Assembly (NCBI GenBank): GCA_973851085.1
Contig: OZ316776.1
Location: forward strand, 2,976,001 to 3,040,000
DNA from: Ptychomitrium polyphyllum
Taxonomy: Eukaryota
Direction of reading: 5' to 3'
Length of the DNA: 64,000 bases
Of the stretch, positions 1-18,367 are shown piece after piece. Under the pieces are notes generated by a model that was given only the letters and a program-made list of their open reading frames with translations, did no database searches and was not told the origin of the DNA. Both the position numbers and the translations under genes were made by a program. Position 1 is the first letter of the stretch, and each line of letters begins with the position of its first letter.

Positions 1-966
1 GACGATAAAAACCATCAACCCGGAGGACGACCAACACTATAAGTCATCCACCGAGATCAGCCCCATCTGATAAATCATCCATCCGAGAGTAGTCATCCAA
101 CCGAGCGTGGTCTTGCATCCTTGGAATCATTCATCTGAGAGTGATGGACGAACGGAGAATCATCCTGAGGATGAAATACGTCAGAGAGCAGGACTGAGAA
201 GCGTGGAAGCGCCGAAGGGAGGCTGGCTATCGAGGTGGCAGGCGTTGAAGTGCGAGAAGGCATGGCAGACGAGAAGATCTGAGGGCGGAGCTGCAACCTT
301 GTGGGAGCTGCGGCTTCACTGCAATCATCGTGGTAGCTCTTTGTCACGTTGCACTTGCGGGTGCAGGTTGTGGAGCCACTGTTGGTGATGCAGGCTGTGG
401 TGAGCATTCCTAGTGATGAGACTGCAAGGTGGTAGTTTTAGGTGGGAGGATCTGTTTCGTTGGGTTGTGCAAGGCCATCTTTGATGCCAATGCTGGTTTG
501 ACAGGTTATGAGGGGGATTGTTTGTTCGTTTCGTAGCTCATTTGTGTGTAGGGCGGTGCGATTCGGATGACACCGTACGAGATGGAGGTTTGGTGATGCT
601 TGTGTTCGCTGTGTGCATGCGCGTTTCATGTTCTGGAATTAGGGTTGTGCTGCTGCTCGCTGGAGTTGGAGATCCGGGATGGGAGTAGTTTAGGAGATTT
701 TGGAGCTTGCGCGTGCTTTTCATGTGCTTAGTCAATTGACTGCAGTGAAGATTAGGTGTGTCTTGCATGCAGAGGAATGTGTTAGGGGTGTTCGTTGGAT
801 GTGAGCAGGGTTTCAGGGATGATAGAGATGTTGGACATTCTGCGCAGATGTGATTAATGCCAGCTTAGTAGGCTGCGAAGAGGGGAGGGGAGAGGAGGGA
901 CGGCGAGGTGACGGAAGCCGATACAATGTGCGTGAGAGCCTTTGCCAATGTTTCGGCTGCTTGTGG

Positions 967-3900
967 ATGGCAGCTGCCGCTGCTTTCGAATTCTTTTTGG
1001 GGCAGACAAGCTTTGGGCTCCACCCGAGTGGCATTGAACCTAGGTCACTCCCCTCCCCTGCTGCCTCTTGCTTTGGTGCGTTTCTAGATCGAACGTTTTC
1101 TTGTAATTGGAGAGCTACTTTGTACAGACAGTCTCTTTTGGCACCAGCTGTGGTCTAAAAATTACGACGGAATCCAGACAGGATGACCGTGAACTGCATT
1201 AGGATTAATGCAGTATCACTTCTTGATTCCTGATCGAGACTGGGGTGTTTTGATGAATCGCGGAAAGATGGACCAGATTTCACTTTAATGGTGATGCTTG
1301 CAAAAGTTTGTCATTATTTTTTCAGTGTGTTGCAATGTTCATAACTGGCTGCGAGTGAACGTATGGTGAGGGTTAAAATCGGATGAACAGAAGGGGGTGC
1401 GATTTGGAATTTTGCAGTTGATTAAATCTGGGGTGAAGCGATCACGAAGAGCATTAAGGATTAAATGCTTCTGAGATACCTAATTATAGTGAAGCTTTCA
1501 CTTCGGGTAAAATATTTTTACGGTGTTTGACAATTTCCTTAAAGCTTGTTTGGGTGGATTCATTTTTATCACAGGCAAGTGTGTGGCTGCAAGGAGATGG
1601 ACGAGACCCTCGATTCATCGGCATGTCACTGTTGTTGCTAATGCAATTAGGAGTCAGGAGTCGCACCCCTCGGTAAGTTGTTTAGTTCCCGTACAGATCT
1701 CTGTCAATCCAGAGACTGAAGCTCTCTGTTGCTACTGTGACAGAAGCTCATTGCCTGCTTATTCCAGTCTTCGTCATTATAGGTTGGTTATTTTAGTGAG
1801 TGGTAGTTGAAGGGTTACTCGGTGATGGCTGAAGGGTAAGCGTGAGAATTGAAAGACTCCAGGACCGGGATCGAGAGAATCAAAGTGGAGAACTTAACTA
1901 CTTTTGACAGCATGAAAATGGGGAGTTCTACAGGTGCAACTTTTGAAGGAAAATAAGGGAGAGGATAAGTTTATTATACAAACTTTGGAATTCTATTAAT
2001 GTTATCTAGGCCCAACTGTTATCTCGGTGATCAAGGTATACCGTTCAAGTGCACACAGCTTAAGGAGTTGACTCTGTTGCAATGCAGCAGGCGATTTTCT
2101 TTTCAGATGTTGGACTTGATCGAGCAGCAGAAATGCGAGTTGATGAAACCAAGCTGTCGGACGCATTCAAATGCCCAGAAGCCCTGGTATGACTGCCAGA
2201 TTCAATTTCCTGTGACAAAATGTTTCCGAAACTTTTCTACATCTTTTCACTTCAAACATGCGTTCACCCCCCATTTTTCAAGTTGTGGATAAACGGGAGA
2301 TATAATTCTGAGTCTTTGTCATGCTTGTATGACTCTTGATTGTCATTCTGTATGATCAGTTGTTTTCTGGAACAGGTAGTCCCATTGATGGAAGCAAAAA
2401 ACCTTGTGAAGAAAGGAAAGCCTGTTCTAGTGGCAGCTTCAGCCTTGCAGTTGAAGGATGCAGACCATGCAGCTGCTGGGTACCCGGTGTTTTTAGGGCT
2501 AACGAACTCCACCAGAGCTCCGGTATTTTCTGTGAATTTGGAGAAACAGCCTAGGTACTTTTTATTGTAACGTTTTGCAATTTAAGCTCTTGATGTTTCT
2601 GAGTATTTTAATAGACTGGGACAAAGAATTAGATTATGAAGCCAAGCAAAGTAATGAAAACCCACTATAGCAGTGCAGGTGGAGAAAGGCCAGCATGGGA
2701 AGATGGTGGTGAGTGGGTTGATGTGCGCCGATATGGTCCCGAACTTCAGGCATCAGATGCAGGACTCCTGGCGTATGCTCGAGGAATGGTGGAATGGCAA
2801 TCTCGCAATGTATGTTCCTGTTTCCTCCTCTTGTGGCTATCGAGTGATCCTCCCTATTGCTAATAAAAACCTAGAAATCTTTTATTGAGCAAAATACGTT
2901 CTTTTTAGTAATGGACGACTTATTGGTTAGATCATCTTCTGCGTAGGTTTTTTCAGAATATGTTTGTAAATGTTTTGAGTTTATAAAGGTATTCATGTAC
3001 CTTCATACTTGTACTTGTTGGGAAAAGAAGTTATCTTCCTTGTTCTATGCAATTGTGCAGAAGCATTGTGGTGCTTGTGGTCAACGGATGATTGCTAAAG
3101 ATGGTGGTCACTCGTTGCATTGCTCTTCCGATTCCTGTAAAACTCCTGCTTACCCAAGACTGGTACTTTCCTCCATTCTTCAGCTCGACAATCATGATAT
3201 TGAGATGTTTATGTTGGATTTCTTCAGCTTTTTTTTGTCAAGTACTACGTATGAGATGATGATTATCGAGAGACGACTAGTTGTTTTGTGTGAAAAACGG
3301 TCACAACCATGATAATCATGTAGTCTTGCCTTTTGGTGAAGCTCTTTACCAGACTGAGCTACCTCCTATGACGATAGTTATTGTATTGAATTTCATTTTC
3401 TAGTACTTGGACGTGCGCTTGTTGACTAATGTTAGGAGCGTGAAATACAAGTGACAGACAATGTGTTTGTATTCTACTTCCAGGACCCGGCTGTCATCAT
3501 GCTGGTAGCATGTGGTAATTACGTGCTCCTTGGGCGACAAGTGAGCATTTTTCTGTAATCTGATTCTTTGAGATGGCTTTTTATACAGCTGATGTGAGTT
3601 TCCCTGTGTTTCAAAACAAATTTCAGATATGGATTCTTCATATTGGTCTAGGATGAGATTATAGGTTTCCCAGACTTTTGTTGTTGTAATGAAGGGTGGA
3701 ACAAGCGTAGGAGATTGTTCTAAGAAGAAGACCGATGAAATTTTGTGAATTAGAAAAGGGAAGATCACATTCTTGCAATGTTTGCAGAGTAGATGGAACC
3801 CTGGCCGATATTCGTTGTTGGCAGGCTTTGTGGAGATTGGGGAAACATTTGAAATGGCGGTTGCAAGGGAAGTGAAAGAAGAATCTGGGATAGACATTGA

Positions 3901-5558
3901 CAGAACTAGTGTGAGGTGCCTCTCTCTCCTTTCCACTTCTGTCTCTTTGCCATTGTATGCTATATTTCTTTACGCCTCTGTATTCACATATTTATGCTGC
4001 TCTTGCTCCTAAAATAATTGTGTTGGTCATGGAAGACATGAGTCATTCACATGATGAATAAGGTGATGTTCTACAGATGGCTTATTAGCATGTCTATTCT
4101 GACGTCTAGTATTGGTCATGACTAGCTACACTTGCAGTCAGCCATGGCCTTTTCCGTCGTCACTCATGGTAGGCTTCAGCGCCTCTGCAATGAAGAACTT
4201 AAGTGAGCCTTACAGTGCCGATTCTGAGAATGATAATGCTATAGCCGTCAGTTCCGATAAACTCAGCGTTGTTGATGAAGTTCGTGCACTACCCCAAACC
4301 TCTCCTGACAAAGTTGAACTTGAGGTATTTAAACACAAGCAATCTCTTCGCCTTCCTTTTTAAATGATTCAGACTCGACCTATTTGGCCAATTTGTTGTT
4401 TTTACCGATGATAGACAGTAACGATTCTGTCAGTTTGGAAATTTCTACAGTAGCTCTTAAAATGGTGTAATGTTCTTTCAAAACATGATGTATGTGTTCT
4501 AAATCAAGCTATAGGATGCAAGATGGGTCCACAAGGATTTATTGAGGTGGATTCTCAAAGGAAATACCTTACCACACGGCATCCAATTTAGTATTCCAGG
4601 AAGCTATGCCATTGCCAATATCCTTCTGAGCCGGTGGGCAGGGAGTGAAAGTGACTCTTTATGGGCTGGGGACGATGTCAGATCTGTTGATATTGATGAA
4701 GGTAAGGCTTTCAGTCGGAACACGCGGTCTCATTGCTCTGTGGCCTTCACTTTTTAGTTCATGCTTCACTCTCCTTGGTGGGTTCTTTGATGATCTTAGA
4801 CTTCAGGAATCTGGAAATATTTCGAAACGTTTGTTTCTTAATGACATGAATTCTGAACAATGTTTGTCAGCTTGCATAGACCTGAGGAAAAACGACGCAA
4901 GTCTGTCATATGGTATCTGCCATGATAGTGGGTGTCCTAGAGTAACTTATGTTTTGAACCGGCTGGTTGTTGTGATGGTTTCAGGAGTTTTCAAATATGT
5001 AATGATGTGTATCAGTGATGACAAGGGTCGTGAGAAACTGGTGAAATCTCAAAACATCCTTCACATGCTTTCCAAATTTGGTGATCTTATTCGATTTTCC
5101 AGCTCTGAGTGCCTGAATATCTATTACTCAAGCTTCAAGCTGCTTAGACCTTGAACCACAATGAGTTGCTTGAATTGGACAGATTGTCAGGGGCAACGGC
5201 AAACTCGCATACCATTCCGATATTTTAGAAGCAACGCAGGAAGAAGTCAAGGATATGGGAATCCAGGTGAACTTCTTTTTTGTTGTTTACTTTTACGTAC
5301 TTCTATCATTTTACATGACGAGATTACTTTCAGCGTCTAAGTTGTTGAACTACTGCACCAATGATGAACTAGAAACGGGACTGCATGTTGCAGGTTTCTC
5401 AGCTAGGTGGAGGACGGATTGATCATAATGCCAAAGAGCGCAAGCTTCATGTCTACAGTTCCTCGCAAGGATTTGGTCTGGCAAACCATACTGTCACTTG
5501 TGCAATCCTCAAGCAATGGTATCCATTACATAGTATTACTCTGGCATTGGGAGGATAG
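967..5558 (+). CDS. NudC/NUDT19-like NADH pyrophosphatase (zf-NADH-PPase + Nudix) fused to a C-terminal Janus/Ocnus (PHPT1-like phosphohistidine phosphatase) domain; ~532 aa, 13 exons, probable plastid transit peptide
   Basis: Phase-consistent GT-AG exons: 967-1075, 1575-1672, 2091-2186, 2376-2554, 2671-2809, 3061-3162, 3484-3540, 3788-3915, 4126-4324, 4515-4701, 4985-5040, 5183-5266, 5394-5558 (1599 nt, ends in TAG). NudC motifs: GLDR, zinc finger HCGACG..CSSDSC, YPRLDPAVIM, LLGRQ, Nudix box [41 protein letters not shown]. Janus motifs: [38 protein letters not shown]. The N-terminus is rich in Ala/Ser/Arg. The first two exons are less certain than the rest. Confidence 0.9.
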
Positions 5559-5939
5559 TTCATTTGACCTCATGAGTTGACACTGAATCATGGACCAATA
5601 TAAATTTTTAACCTGGAAGGTATATTTCTTTAAGAGGGCAGATTGTGGAGCATAGCTTCTGGTACAAGTCTCGTCTCTTCTTGAAAACTACGTTAAATAT
5701 GCACCTGGAGCTCAGCATGAGATCTTTCAAATGCAGAGGCCTTATGTTTTACAATGAAAGGGTTTCATTTCTAACCTTTTCACGTGCATTTTGAGAGCAG
5801 CCTGGAGAACATGATCTTTCTTTAGAAATTTCAGTGGAGTCATGAAATTTCAACAAACCTGCTGGTAGCCGGTGATGCGGTAGATTGAAGCTCAAAGAGA
5901 TTGAACCCATGCATTTGATCCTGGTTATATCAACTCAAC

Positions 5940-8669
5940 TTACAAAACACTACCCACTGTAATCCCACGTTCTCTTAAGCCTGCAAGTTGTGCCAAACCC
6001 ATTTGCCCTGCCTCGAAAATATCCGATATCTTTTTGGGCTTTGAAACTGGCACGAATGAACTCCTACAGAGGACCCATGACGATGTGAGATAGTAGCATG
6101 ATCGGAGATTACATTTTAGAACAGCATACGTTGTAGTTATTATCAAGTACATATGAAAGGAATAGGTGTGCATCTGGCAGGAAGGTTATCAGCAATCAAA
6201 AGTGGCTTTTCAGGATGTTCTGGAAAATAGGAGACGGGCAAGGGGACAACGTCTACCTAGTAGATGAATCTTTTGATGATGGGTCAGCTGATTCCGGGTC
6301 AGGTGCTTGTATGAAAGGGTTGGCCACGGCCATGCTCAAGCCAGGGTTGCCATTAGTAAGTGCAAATTGTGTGGGTGTACCCTGGCTAAGATGCTGTAGC
6401 CGGACCCTTGCCAATTTGCCTGCTAATTCTGAATCACCCACCTGCAGTAGAGATCGCGTTCGTCAGATCACAGGTTCCAACTCTCAAGTTTAGACGTTTT
6501 ACATCTCTAGTGGGGATGTTTTAGACCTAGGTACGAAGCATGTTACCTTATTGCTCGCACATAAGGCCACATCACGTGACGTGATAACACCCCTGACTCG
6601 TTCAAGCACACTTGTTCGTCGTTGTTTCTTCATCTCCTCCTCAATTGATGTCTTGTCACTTCTCAGTCTGCTGTTCTCTGACAGCAGTTGATTTACTGTG
6701 TTTATCAAATCCATTTTCTCCACTGGGAGACGGCCTTTTCTATGCCCTCCGAAGAACTGCAAATTCAATTATATTTTCAAAGTTGTAATCTGTATCTCAA
6801 GCTAGTTGAAATCTAAGCAATTAATTCACATGATAAAAGCTAGACCTGTAGTGGCAGGTAATGAGATTAGGTCACCTTCTGATTCACTTTCACCATCTCC
6901 AGTTCGGACCGTAATGACTCATTTTCCTGCAGCCATCATTGCCCATAACGTATGATTAACATACTTTTGATGGTGAGTGTTGATCGCACCCGTGTAAAAT
7001 CAAATTAGCTTCAAATACGCTTGAACAGCAACCTTTCGCATGTGAAAGATCTCTGTTACAAGTTGAGCACGAGCCGAGGTCTCGTCTTTGAGACTGTCTT
7101 CGAGCTGATGTCGCGAAGCTTCAATAGTGGTAAGCTGCAATTGCAACGATTGACACTCTTGTCGAAGTTCGCTACATTTGGTCTGGTGAACAGCTTCCCC
7201 TTGCTCATACGCTTTCAACTTCGTCTGCAACCGCTTAAACTTAGCAGAATAGAGGTCCTGTGGCAGCGTTTGCCGTTGTTTCAGAATGACTGGGATGTGC
7301 ACATATCCAAGGCAATAGGCATCTTCTGATTTTCGATACAAGTTGGTGTAGGAAGACGAGAAAGATGTGTTGTACCTGTAATGCGTGAATTTCTTGCCGT
7401 AGGATATTCCTCTCAATGCCAACCTCATCTGCACAAGATTTCAGGCTCTCGACGCCTGTTTGTGGCTCCTCAATGACTGGAGGCCGCTCTCTTGCGTCTA
7501 CCAATTCGGCTCTTAGCTCATCATTCTCTTGCTTCAACTGTTCCACACCGCATGCTAATGTATCAATTAAGAGGAATATAATCAGGCCTCACACGCTCGC
7601 GAAATTGTTCGTCTTAGCAATAAGCAAGGAAAGTAGTCAGTGGTCGTTAACCTTGCCGCGGATTAGGACAAGGGTGTCGTTCTTTGCATCCACAATCACA
7701 CGCAGCATTGCAACACTGGCTTCCAACTTTTGCAACTGAAGATCCACACATTTAGCAATGGTCAGAAGAGCAATGTGGCTAATATGCCTCCTCATTCGCC
7801 GTCTTCGAAAGAATAAGATATCAACGTAAATTTATCCTCAAGCGTGCTTTAGATTAGATGTGCACCTCGTCTAAAATTTTATATGGTCCATCTGAGTCAC
7901 TTGTTTTTTGAGATTTGTTGATCTGAGTAGAAACGACTCTGAAATTCGGGAGAACGTGCTTTTGAAACGCTTCCACAGACTGTAGGATGCTGCTTGCCGT
8001 GGTAGTGCTCTTATGCATGACAGTCTCAAGGCTTCGCATGCGATCACCGTAATTGCCTTCCTCACTGTCAATTGCCTTCCTCATTGACTCTATCTCGGCC
8101 ACTAGCTGCTCCCTCTCAATGAGAGCTTTATCCTTGTCTGAGACGGCTTGCGCAACACTTGAAGCTGCGGGTTCTAACATACTCTTCAAACGCTCTATTT
8201 CTCCTTTCAGCTTTTGTGTGGTTGCATTCACCAGCGCCGACACTTCCACATCACGATGTGCCCGCAGCCTTTGCAGCTCTAGTCTCTATTGTTTGAAAGC
8301 AGACGAGGATGAACTTAAGCTTATCGAAACTCTCTGAACAAAAACTTAATATTGGGTTATGCGTTAAACAACGAAATTTGATTCCAACTGGATTTGTAAT
8401 AAACAGCACAGCATACTCACTTGATTTTTCTCACGGTTGATTAAGTCATTGAGCTGAAAACGAAGAATATCGTTCTCCTGCTGCAGAGATTTCGCCAGCA
8501 TTTCGGCCTCCGCCGCTCGATGCGTGGAGGCTCTCTGTTTCTGGAATCAACGAGCGAAAAGAATCATCCCCAGGCTAATCCAGGCTCCATGTCGACATCA
8601 AGTAGTTTCTCATAAACATTATCATATGTGATCAAGCAATATCACGGAATCACATAATACCTGACTCAT
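5940..8669 (-). CDS. Coiled-coil protein of unknown function, ~529 aa, 10 coding exons
   Basis: Phase-consistent GT-AG exons on the minus strand: 8669-8661 (MSQ), 8540-8421, 8285-7866, 7735-7652, 7537-7376, 7257-7033, 6926-6876, 6756-6547, 6441-6257, 6063-5940 (1590 nt, ends in TAA). The sequence is E/K/L/Q-rich and heptad-like (LKGEIERLKSML, LKQENDELRAEL, LQLQLTTIEASRHQLE). Further non-coding exons probably lie upstream (donor at ~8985). Confidence 0.75.
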
Positions 8670-15731: not shown

Positions 15732-18270
15732 TTAGAATGGGCCTGGAGCGAAATGCCAGCCGTCGAGAATTTTCAGCAATGGCGCGACATGCCGACCGTC
15801 GCACATGGCGTCGTAAACCGTCTCGAAGTCACTGCCGGGTGACTGCGATTGCTCGCCCGTGAGCAACCGGGTCGCGAGCTCCGTCCTCACGAAGTCGTAG
15901 AGTGGAAATGACCTGCAGTCGACCACTCTGTTAGGCACTGCAAACACGCCATTGTCAAAATTCTCACGCGCCGCCGCCACCTTCATTTGGAGATGAGTTT
16001 TCACTTCTTCTTCGAAAGCCGGGATTTTATGGAAAATCGACAGCCCCTCGTCCGAGTTTCGATTGTACTTGAGAGCGAAATCCACGAGGATCTGCCGGAG
16101 CTTTTGCATGAGAGGGTAAGCCGTGCTCGCCGCGTCGTCGATATAGGTAAAGATGGGTTGGTGGTCGACGACCTGGAGAAGCTCCTTTTCGCAGAAGCGT
16201 GCGACCTGGAGCGCGCCGTTCACGCCGACGACGAGGGTTTTTTTCGCGGCGTTCGCGACAACAGCCTTGACGGTCGCTTGCATGGTTTCTTCGAGGTGGC
16301 GCAGGTCGACGGCTTGGCAGAGCGCGACGAGGTAGGTAGAAGTCATGAGCTTGAGAATTTCAATGGCTTCCGAGGTTTTTCGCGCGGAGATGAGGCCGAG
16401 GGAGTTGACGTCTTGGTTATGTTGCTCCGCGCTTTGGACGTGGGTGGTGACGGGGTTGGCGAGGTACAGGAGCTCGCTGGTGTAGGACGCCATGGCGATC
16501 TCAGCGCCTTTCATGCCGTAGTCAAGGCTAGGGTTTGGACCCCCAGAGAGATTGGACGGTAGGCCGTTATTGTAGAAGTCGTTGACGAGCTCACTGAACT
16601 GCGCGAACATGAGCTTGCCGATTGACGCGACCGACAGGCGCATTTGGTCCATGGCGACGCCGATGGGCGTCCCCTGGAAGTTCCCGCCATGGAGCGCCAT
16701 GTCGCGCGCGACGTCGATGAGGGGGTTGTCATTCACAGAGTTGATCTCGCGTTGAATGGAGTGAGTGGCACTGCGGATGGTTTCGATGTGGGGGCCGAGC
16801 CACTGCGGGGAAGTACGCAGGGCGTACCGGTCCTGCTTCGGCTTCTTCAACGGATCGGTGGCGTGCAGCTTCGCCGCGGCCTTCATGTAGCTACTCCCGT
16901 CCAGCACCCATTCCATCATCGCCGCTGCCTCCATCTGCCCCGGGTGATGCTTCAACTTGTGCGTCAGCGGGTCGGCGAATTCTGGCTTCCCTTGCATGAC
17001 CTCACAGAACACCGCGCTGAGAACTTCCGCCATAACGACCAACACATTCGCATCGAAACAAACCGTGGAGGCCAACCCCGACCCCACCGCCGTCCCGTTC
17101 ACGAGCGCCAACCCCTCCTTCGGCTCTAGCTGAAACGGCTTCCCAACCCCAGCAATCCGTAAAGCTTCTTCACCACTCACCTCCTTCCCATCCGCTGTGT
17201 ACGCCCGCGAATTCGTCCTCCCTGTCAAGCACCCGGCAATGTAAGACAGGGGAACCAAATCCCCTGAAGCCGTAATCGTCCCCCGAAGTGGCAACTTGGG
17301 CGTCACATTCGCATTGAGCAATCTCTTCATCGCATCTAAAATCTCCCACCGAATGCCCGAGTATCCTTGCATCAACGTATTTGTCCGCACCAGCATCGCA
17401 GATCGCGTGGTCGTTGAGGGCAAAGTATTCCCATCGCCTTTCCCTACGATGCCGGCATTCAGAAACCGAATCAACTCGCGTTGCAATTCCGCTCCTTGCG
17501 TTGTCCGACGGTGTGACGTCGCCCCAAACCCTATTATTCCACCCAAACCGTTAATCCCCGATCAGCTTGTGCCAATCATTCGAAAACACCACAAGAAATC
17601 CGCTTACCACTCTCCAGCACGCTGACTCAAACGCAAATATTGATGAGATCATCGGTATTTAAATCATCTCGACAGGAAAATCTGAGGCCTTCAGTCCTCT
17701 GTTTCAGAGATGGGCCAACTCGGTCTTAGAATTGTGTGAAGGACCTATCAAGAGGGAAATTGGGGATTGTTTTCGTGTACCTGTGGTAACGCCGTAAGTG
17801 TCAGTGCCCTTCATAGCGCATGAGAGCACCCAGTTGGAGCTTTCGTCTACGCGCGCCTTGGCTGTAGCCGCGTCGAGGACCACCTTCACCTCCGGCCTGC
17901 GTGCAATAGCAGCAACCTGTGCGACGCTGAGGCTGGCGCCCTCGAGAACCACCTCGCGGCACTCGAAGAACGTCGCCGCCATGACCTTCACCTCCTCCAC
18001 ATGGCTCCCGGACAACCCAGCTGCGACCTTCCCCCAATTCAGAGGATCATCGCATCGCCCACCTTCCCTCGCATTGCAGAGTTCGGGCCCCAACGATGTC
18101 GCCTTCGCCTTCTCTGGAAATGTGGCGCCGATGAGCCCATTCGTGTGCGGCTGCTCCACCAGCTGGAACGCCATCGCTGGTGTGGACATATGCGCCTTGT
18201 GGTTCAGTCTGGCCCCCACCGCCTCCGCCTCCACCATCGCAGCCATCTTCGCCCTCTTGTTCATCAACAT
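15732..18270 (-). CDS. PAL: Phenylalanine ammonia-lyase, 2 exons (~754-762 aa depending on start ATG 18246 or 18270)
   Basis: Exon 1 18270-17781, intron 17780-17531 (GT..AG), exon 2 17530-15732. The joined sequence reads [15 protein letters not shown]. It has the MIO-forming motif [17 protein letters not shown], plus ELIRFLNAG (Phe at the substrate-switch position, consistent with PAL rather than PTAL), [26 protein letters not shown] and [11 protein letters not shown]. Confidence 0.97.
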
Positions 18271-18367
18271 CTTCACAGCCTCTCTTCACAGCAGGTTGCT
18301 CTTCTCCACAGCTCTCATCCACCACCACCGCTCCCACCTTTCTTCTCAAACAAACTCAATCCCACAA

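What the first reader, a model, noticed from the sequence alone, without database searches (positions are those of the whole stretch)
4660..5558. NADH pyrophosphatase (NudC-type) fused to a PHPT1/Janus phosphohistidine phosphatase domain
Seen: after the Nudix domain the frame continues through four exons (…4701, 4985-5040, 5183-5266, 5394-5558) with canonical GT-AG sites and matching phases. The joined sequence is [109 protein letters not shown]. Established: this is colinear with human PHPT1 (VDIDSDGVFKYV…IVRG…YHADI…LGGGRI…IHVYGYS…AQH…KYP). Equivalents of K21, R45, catalytic H53, R78, S94 and H102 are all retained. Janus/PHPT1 is mainly studied in animals, and Arabidopsis NUDT19 lacks this domain to my knowledge. 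Inference: a probably plastid-targeted bifunctional enzyme linking NAD(P)H or NAD-cap hydrolysis with P-N bond (pHis/phosphoramidate) hydrolysis. It could point to an uncharacterised organellar pHis-signalling or metabolite-repair system in bryophytes. Automated annotations may already list the architecture, but I know of no functional description.
Basis: partly seen in the sequence, partly recalled or inferred. Interest (0 to 1): 0.9.

Follow-up and report, generated by a model that had tools for sequence, protein, structure and literature searches.

The report
Moss NudC–PHPT1 fusion, already reported
This moss gene joins a NudC-type Nudix domain to a domain related to the animal phosphohistidine phosphatase PHPT1; a 2016 paper already noted the pairing, but it also occurs in ferns and a conifer and keeps the catalytic histidine, so it is likely a two-activity chloroplast enzyme whose function is untested.

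Summary
The fusion is real. Thirteen exons (926-5558, 12 of 12 introns GT-AG) give one 536-aa frame: organellar-type presequence, NUDIX-like, zinc ribbon, NUDIX, Janus/Ocnus. One exon (4515-4701) carries both the Nudix end and the Ocnus start. The architecture is not new: Maruta et al. 2016 (PMC5118724) list an 'Oncus' domain on subgroup II AtNUDX19-type enzymes of Physcomitrella, Klebsormidium, Chlamydomonas, Volvox and Coccomyxa. My searches found no functional study. Against a simple reading: Physcomitrium has Glu at the K21 site, Sphagnum Trp at R78, Chlamydomonas Trp at R45. Best reading: an organellar NAD(P)H pyrophosphatase carrying an active P-N phosphatase. Ordinary as an architecture, moderately interesting as an untested enzyme.

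The parts
926..1043 (+). Exon 1, ATG at 926; start of a predicted organellar presequence (aa 1-73: 8 R, 8 S, 1 acidic residue)
   Evidence: 56 of 73 aa identical to the Ceratodon orthologue P0002
1575..1672 (+). Exon 2, rest of the presequence
2088..2186 (+). Exon 3, start of the mature NUDIX-like domain (alternative acceptor 2091, NAGNAG)
2376..2554 (+). Exon 4, NUDIX-like domain
   Evidence: whole-protein Pfam on P0002
2671..2809 (+). Exon 5, end of the NUDIX-like domain (PF09296)
   Evidence: E=1.2e-6
3061..3162 (+). Exon 6, C4 zinc ribbon (C214, C217, C232, C237)
   Evidence: PF09297 E=6.6e-7
3484..3540 (+). Exon 7, start of the NUDIX domain
3788..3915 (+). Exon 8, Nudix box GX5EX7REUXEEXGU (aa 277-299)
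   Evidence: PF00293 E=4.2e-9
4126..4324 (+). Exon 9, SQPWPFPxS motif (aa 311-319) and a roughly 33-aa insertion
4515..4701 (+). Exon 10, junction exon: Nudix C-terminal strand and helix, W-x-G linker (4662-4670) and first strand of Ocnus
4985..5040 (+). Exon 11, Ocnus; K439 (human K21) at 4993-4995
5183..5266 (+). Exon 12, Ocnus; R457 (R45) and catalytic H465 (H53) at 5213-5215
5394..5558 (+). Exon 13, Ocnus; R490 (R78), S506 (S94), H514 (H102), fusion-specific W524; TAG stop 5556-5558; no peroxisomal SKL-type tail

Best explanation
The gene encodes one 536-aa protein in which a NudC/NUDT12-type Nudix module is fused to a PHPT1/Janus domain; it is likely imported into chloroplasts (possibly also mitochondria), where the Nudix module likely splits NAD(P)H at the pyrophosphate bond and the Janus domain likely removes N-linked phosphate from phosphohistidine enzymes. 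Shown: gene structure, domain order, catalytic motifs and wide conservation. Predicted: presequence function and a fixed packing of the two domains through fusion-specific residues (W423-x-G425, W524). Inferred: Mg-dependent hydrolysis of NAD(P)H to NMNH plus AMP or 2',5'-ADP, as for AtNUDX19 and NudC; H465 acting as general base for water attack with K439, R490 and S506 holding the phosphate, as proposed for human PHPT1. The targets would be organellar phospho-His enzymes such as NDPK, PPDK or GWD/PWD (recalled candidates, not tested). The net role would be housekeeping of reductant and high-energy phosphate rather than a dedicated signalling cascade.
For: Nudix box, SQPWPFPxS and C4 zinc ribbon are intact. 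Closest solved structures are NUDT12, M. abscessus NudC and E. coli NudC. The model's tail overlays human PHPT1 2NMM at rmsd 0.9 over 108 columns. Among 66 non-redundant fused domains: H53 66, K21 65, S94 65, H102 64, R78 59, R45 54, close to the 138 Ocnus-only rows for H53, K21, S94 and H102 but lower for R78 and R45 (132 and 130 of 138). K21, H53, R78 and S94 are named as catalytic-site residues in PMC4817053 (passages); H53 and H102 in PMC11277029 section 3.1. AlphaFold2 pTM is 0.79 for P0002 and 0.85 for P0020, above the rough ceilings of 0.64 and 0.75 that I estimate for an unplaced Ocnus domain. W524 occurs in 42 of 65 fused versus 1 of 116 stand-alone domains. A 559-aa, 61.5-kDa 'NAD(+) diphosphatase' (Mp1g13840) is in 3 of 3 replicates of a Marchantia polymorpha plastid proteome with 5, 6 and 9 unique peptides (PMC13419835 supplement); the M. 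paleacea fusion P0004 is 559 aa, 61.6 kDa.
Against: No activity assay for any member was found. Physcomitrium has Glu at the K21 site in 9 of the 9 cluster members in which the motif was found, of 10 printed. Sphagnum and Psilotum have Trp at R78, and 10 of 66 rows including Chlamydomonas have Trp at R45. The window's protein changes peptide-contacting E51, Y93 and M95 and the near-invariant G92 (G in 134 of 138 Ocnus-only rows), so its substrate may differ from PHPT1's. TargetP gave mitochondria for 5 of 5 published fusions. The Marchantia proteome entry was matched by name, length and mass, not by sequence. No interface coordinates or PAE were returned, so docking rests on pTM arithmetic.
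Confidence: 0.45

Rival explanations
1. Two-step nucleotide clean-up: the Janus domain is a small-molecule phosphatase that removes phosphate from the Nudix products (NMNH, AMP or 2',5'-ADP) or from damaged pyridine nucleotides, so the fusion joins consecutive reactions.
For: Fused enzymes often catalyse consecutive steps (general knowledge). The phosphate-binding residues are kept while the peptide-contact residues E51, Y93 and M95 have changed. The domains are predicted to pack in a fixed way. The proposed PHPT1 mechanism is direct water attack with no phospho-enzyme, which is not limited to proteins.
Against: No paper seen here shows PHPT1 acting on nucleotide monoesters; my search for small-molecule substrates listed nothing relevant. 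E51 and M95 also vary among Ocnus-only rows. Angiosperm subgroup I enzymes work without the domain.
Confidence: 0.2
2. The Janus domain is mainly a phosphate- or nucleotide-binding regulatory or structural partner of the Nudix module, with weak or no catalysis in several lineages.
For: Lineage-specific loss of K21, R78 or R45 in otherwise intact genes. Fusion-specific surface residues. Micromonas subgroup II enzymes lack the domain altogether. Analogy: in mycobacterial MutT1 (Nudix plus RHG histidine-phosphatase domain) the Nudix domain does the pHis dephosphorylation, and a section heading says the C-terminal domain supports it (PMC11784022 abstract and outline).
Against: H53 is kept in 66 of 66, S94 in 65 and H102 in 64 of 66 fused domains across green algae and land plants. 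All six residues are intact in this gene.
Confidence: 0.2
3. Convenience fusion: two independent enzymes share one promoter and transit peptide with no functional coupling.
For: Linker length varies from 19 to 69 residues between fixed columns. A Ceratopteris annotation lists an 89-aa Ocnus-only product of the same locus, although it lacks the K21 strand.
Against: pTM values imply a fixed arrangement. W-x-G and W524 are specific to fusions. No clearly split green-lineage pair was found; 7 short Ocnus rows nesting among the fusions could not be classed.
Confidence: 0.13
4. Artefact: two adjacent genes or a mis-joined model.
For: The exon joins of this species were inferred from sequence, not read from transcripts.
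Against: One exon holds both domains. Orthologues of 537-542 aa sit on contigs no longer than about 2.0-2.4 kb, against a 4.6-kb gene span here, which implies spliced transcripts. Fern entries carry transcript-assembly-style names. 23 of 24 hits carry both Pfam domains.
Confidence: 0.02

Closest known systems
Subgroup II (B) SQPWP / AtNUDX19-type enzymes with 'Oncus' domain, e.g. Physcomitrium Pp3c14_12120, Klebsormidium kfl00032_0450, Chlamydomonas Cre13.g582476 (Maruta et al. 2016, PMC5118724)
   Same: Same four-domain order, size (533 aa in P. patens, 536 here) and motifs. The P. patens cluster P0003 is 82% identical in the Nudix part and 86% in Ocnus. This gene is the orthologue.
   Different: This gene keeps Lys at the K21 site where P. 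patens has Glu. The paper links the domain only to Drosophila Janus/Ocnus in the passages read, reports no function, and surveyed no ferns or gymnosperms (0 occurrences of those words).
AtNUDX19 (At5g20070), human NUDT12, E. coli NudC
   Same: NUDIX-like + zinc ribbon + NUDIX, Nudix box and SQPWPFP motif; Foldseek E 8e-28 to NUDT12.
   Different: None has an Ocnus domain in the records seen. AtNUDX19 ends in a peroxisomal-type tripeptide; this protein does not. Substrate preference (NADH, NADPH or NAD-cap) is untested here.
Human PHPT1 (PDB 2AI6, 2NMM, 2HW4; Pfam PF05005)
   Same: Same fold (rmsd 0.9) with K21, R45, H53, R78, S94 and H102 equivalents kept.
   Different: Fused rather than stand-alone, with a predicted organellar presequence. 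E51, G92, Y93 and M95 differ. The Cys before the GGG motif, common in stand-alone forms (77 of 122), is nearly absent in fusions (2 of 66).
Mycobacterial MutT1 (PMC11784022)
   Same: A Nudix domain followed by a histidine-phosphatase-type domain; linked to NDK phospho-His removal (abstract).
   Different: Different Nudix class (8-oxo-dGTPase) and an unrelated RHG phosphatase fold, so this is an analogue, not a homologue of the fusion.

Membership tests
NudC / SQPWP NAD(P)H pyrophosphatases | Nudix box GX5EX7REUXEEXGU | tested here: met
   aa 277-299; PF00293
NudC / SQPWP NAD(P)H pyrophosphatases | SQPWPFPxS motif after the Nudix box | tested here: met
   aa 311-319
NudC / SQPWP NAD(P)H pyrophosphatases | N-terminal NUDIX-like domain and C4 zinc ribbon | tested here: met
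   PF09296 and PF09297; four Cys
NudC / SQPWP NAD(P)H pyrophosphatases | Hydrolysis of NADH, NADPH or NAD-capped RNA | not testable with these tools
   needs an enzyme assay
Subgroup II SQPWP enzymes (Maruta 2016) | C-terminal Ocnus domain on the SQPWP core; close to Pp3c14_12120 | tested here: met
Subgroup II SQPWP enzymes (Maruta 2016) | Nudix part groups with subgroup II rather than subgroup I in a tree | not tested
   no subgroup I sequences were fetched; trees were of the Ocnus domain only
PHPT1 / Janus-Ocnus (PF05005) | Profile match above the curated cut-off and the PHPT1 fold | tested here: met
   last exon 49.6 bits versus cut-off 23; orthologue model against 2NMM, rmsd 0.9
PHPT1 / Janus-Ocnus (PF05005) | Catalytic-site residues K21, H53, R78, S94, H102 | tested here: met
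   K439, H465, R490, S506, H514
PHPT1 / Janus-Ocnus (PF05005) | Substrate-binding residues E51, Y52, Y93, M95 of the human enzyme | tested here: inconclusive
   only Y52 is kept; E51 and M95 also vary among Ocnus-only rows, Y93 to S is unusual
PHPT1 / Janus-Ocnus (PF05005) | Phosphohistidine phosphatase activity | not testable with these tools
   needs an enzyme assay

The most novel reading that the evidence does not exclude
Green plants have carried, since near their origin, an active PHPT1-type phosphohistidine eraser inside the chloroplast, rigidly docked onto an NAD(P)H pyrophosphatase so that pyridine-nucleotide status controls dephosphorylation of stromal phospho-His enzymes (NDPK, PPDK, GWD/PWD). 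The system survives in algae, bryophytes, ferns and conifers and was lost only in flowering plants.
Probability: 0.2. Interest if true: 0.8.

Novelty: new member of a known kind. Interest (0 to 1): 0.4.

Why it matters
If the Janus domain is active, this is a concrete, knock-out-ready candidate for phosphohistidine turnover in plant organelles, in tractable models (Marchantia, Ceratodon, Chlamydomonas). The distribution moves the published loss from 'higher plants' to, most likely, flowering plants. A practical caution: the usual model moss, Physcomitrium, carries Glu at the K21 site and may be a poor choice for the assay. The architecture itself is not a discovery.

Tried and rejected
No genome is held for this window, so copy number outside it was not checked; within the window there is one copy. 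RNA: no RNA holder listed. The two runs laid are contigs without joints and may be this DNA's source; this says nothing on expression. Prokaryotic or phage Ocnus neighbours as functional clues: two weak genome hits did not match an Ocnus HMM; viral contigs and phages gave none; these were close-relative searches only. Literature: 'nudix'+'ocnus' gave 1 paper, PMC5118724; gene ids and 'oncus domain' gave the same paper; searches gave 0; one search listed nothing on this gene among 20 of 397. Most subscription journals are not searched, so a characterisation could exist there. An alternative ATG at 967 was rejected: it is out of frame with the orthologue-matching exon 1 and runs into a stop. The careful tree did not finish; quick trees are reported. 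Repeats in 1-7000 look like chance pairs. Searching the Marchantia supplements for 'ocnus' or 'PF05005' gave nothing.

Full report
Observation. The sequence at 4515-5558 is as described. Splicing 13 exons from ATG 926 to TAG 5558 gives one 536-aa frame with 12 of 12 GT-AG introns. Of 10 exons scanned singly against Pfam, 5 hit: NUDIX-like, Zn_ribbon_NUD, NUDIX and Ocnus twice. The spliced tail scores 118.6 bits on an HMM made from 14 stand-alone Ocnus proteins, against 10.9 for the best of 1000 shuffles. Exon 4515-4701 contains both the Nudix C-terminal helix and the first Ocnus strand, so the two domains lie in one frame whatever the later splices. The protein is 91% (311 of 341) and 89% (98 of 110) identical to Ceratodon purpureus M758_2G064100 (P0002) in the Nudix and Ocnus parts, so the window is from a moss. 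Full-length orthologues of 537-542 aa are recorded on contigs of at most about 2.0-2.4 kb, in up to 210 contigs, which I infer to be spliced mRNA since the gene here spans 4.6 kb.

It is in print. Maruta et al. 2016 (PMC5118724; passages, figure legend and supplement part 1 of 2 read) split AtNUDX19-type 'SQPWP' enzymes into two subgroups and state that all subgroup II enzymes except those of Micromonas have 'an additional Oncus domain'. Their table lists it for Physcomitrella Pp3c14_12120, Klebsormidium, Coccomyxa, Chlamydomonas and Volvox. They say substrate use remains to be addressed and conclude that subgroup II was lost in higher plants; the higher plants tabulated are nine angiosperms. 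Eight further searches listed no functional follow-up; two searches returned only this paper. The library lacks most subscription journals.

Distribution. An Ocnus-region search among proteins of 294-938 aa gave 24 hits from 92 candidates, 23 with both NUDIX and Ocnus, including Sphagnum, Riccia, Calypogeia, Marchantia, the fern Ceratopteris and the conifer Cryptomeria. A phmmer search of 1.84 billion representatives gave 956 hits, of which only the best 150 were listed. Of 232 sequences then held, 78 were fused, 153 Ocnus-only and 1 Nudix-only. Named fused holders include Prasinoderma, Chlamydomonas, Myrmecia, Mesostigma, Spirogloea, Psilotum and Pteridium; many rows have no name. No named angiosperm appeared, which agrees with the paper but is not an exhaustive test; lycophytes and hornworts were not seen by name. 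In an Ocnus-domain tree of 204 rows, the 66 fused rows fall in one 82-row group (support 86), and 19 land-plant-type rows form a starred clade (97) with ferns and conifer apart from bryophytes. After relabelling 6 truncated fusions, removing 7 unclassifiable rows and 34-35 near-duplicate or long-branch rows, and thinning stand-alone rows by half, fused rows form one side of a branch in both halves (support 87 and 83, not starred). One early origin in green plants is therefore not ruled out and is the simplest reading, but it is not shown.

Active sites. The Nudix box, SQPWPFPxS and four zinc cysteines are intact; the nearest structures are NUDT12 and NudC. Human numbering was taken from the alignment to 2AI6. 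After dropping 28 of 232 rows (duplicates, short or split domains), the 66 fused domains keep H53 in 66, K21 in 65, S94 in 65, H102 in 64, R78 in 59 and R45 in 54. PMC4817053 (passages) names K21, H53, A54, R78, S94 and A96 as catalytic-site residues and E51, Y52, Y93 and M95 as substrate-binding. PMC11277029 (section 3.1) describes H53 as general base, with H102 also important; the role of R45 is recalled. The window's protein keeps the core set but has A, S and Q at E51, Y93 and M95, and S at G92; the G92S plus Y93S pair occurs in 7 of 66 fused rows, all mosses or liverworts by name or by tree position. Results against full conservation: Physcomitrium has Glu for K21, Sphagnum and Psilotum have Trp for R78, and Chlamydomonas has Trp for R45.

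Structure. AlphaFold2 on 60-row alignments gave pLDDT 85.3 and pTM 0.79 for P0002, with residues 1-58 and 65-69 disordered as expected for a presequence, and pLDDT 89.5 and pTM 0.85 for P0020. If the Ocnus domain were unplaced, pTM should stay near or below the Nudix fraction, about 0.64 and 0.75 (my estimate), so a fixed arrangement is predicted. W524 is found in 42 of 65 fused against 1 of 116 stand-alone domains, and a W-x-G linker motif is conserved; these are candidate interface residues (inference). The Atlas holds a named cluster 'NAD(+) diphosphatase' of 68 members, 75% with Ocnus, so databases also list the architecture.

Location. The first 73 residues have 8 Arg, 8 Ser and 1 acidic residue. 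TargetP called the five published fusions mitochondrial, while WoLF PSORT called three chloroplastic and two mainly mitochondrial. In a Marchantia polymorpha plastid proteome (PMC13419835, a preprint; passages and supplement rows read), A0A2R6XF87 / Mp1g13840, 'NAD(+) diphosphatase', 559 aa, 61.5 kDa, is found in 3 of 3 replicates and in the filtered list. The M. paleacea fusion P0004 is 559 aa and 61.6 kDa. The match is by name, length and mass only. The authors checked purity by Western blot for ER and mitochondrial markers; dual targeting is not excluded.

Mechanism. Best reading (0.45): an organellar NAD(P)H pyrophosphatase carrying an active P-N phosphatase for phospho-His enzymes. Rivals: a two-step nucleotide clean-up (0.2); a regulatory or structural Janus domain (0.2), with mycobacterial MutT1 as a loose analogue (PMC11784022, abstract and outline only); an uncoupled fusion (0.13); artefact (0.02). 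Earlier scan notes on bacterial PHPT1 relatives, one described as catalytically dead, are unchecked leads and were not used as support.

Verdict. Observation confirmed; interpretation partly supported; new member of a known, published but functionally unstudied kind; interest 0.4.

Noticed in passing
window 15732-18285, minus strand: A phenylalanine ammonia-lyase-like gene in two ORFs (15732-17561 and 17704-18285); Pfam Lyase_aromatic E=5e-136 on the larger one.
   Followed up: partly
window about 6100-8300 and probably further, minus strand: Exons of a convergent gene for a long coiled-coil protein that ends close behind the fusion gene; only weak, sub-threshold coiled-coil Pfam hits.
   Followed up: partly
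window 2088/2091 and 2671/2674: Tandem NAGNAG-type acceptors; Physcomitrium isoforms of 533, 534, 534 and 535 aa suggest one-residue splice variants are used in relatives.
   Followed up: no
P0025 (Ceratopteris KP509_13G063500): An annotated 89-aa isoform holding only the later part of the Ocnus domain and lacking the K21 strand; probably an annotation by-product.
   Followed up: partly
P0024 (Dunaliella), P0084 (Closterium): The Dunaliella model runs from a truncated Ocnus domain into a DNA primase, and one Closterium model ends in short repeats right after the Ocnus start; both look like gene-model errors.
   Followed up: no
Atlas structure search: Three clusters of about 100-aa mostly phage proteins have an Ocnus-like predicted fold (TM 0.58-0.63 by query); one has PF05005 on 22% of members.
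   Followed up: no
alignment A2: Only 20 of 43 full-length fused proteins match a four-cysteine zinc-ribbon pattern; several algal forms appear to have lost the zinc ligands while 42 of 43 keep the Nudix box.
   Followed up: partly
window 3192-3209 and 5744-5761: One other contig in both runs matches these two 18-base stretches in opposite orientations and then runs on unlike; probably a chance match or a small repeat.
   Followed up: no
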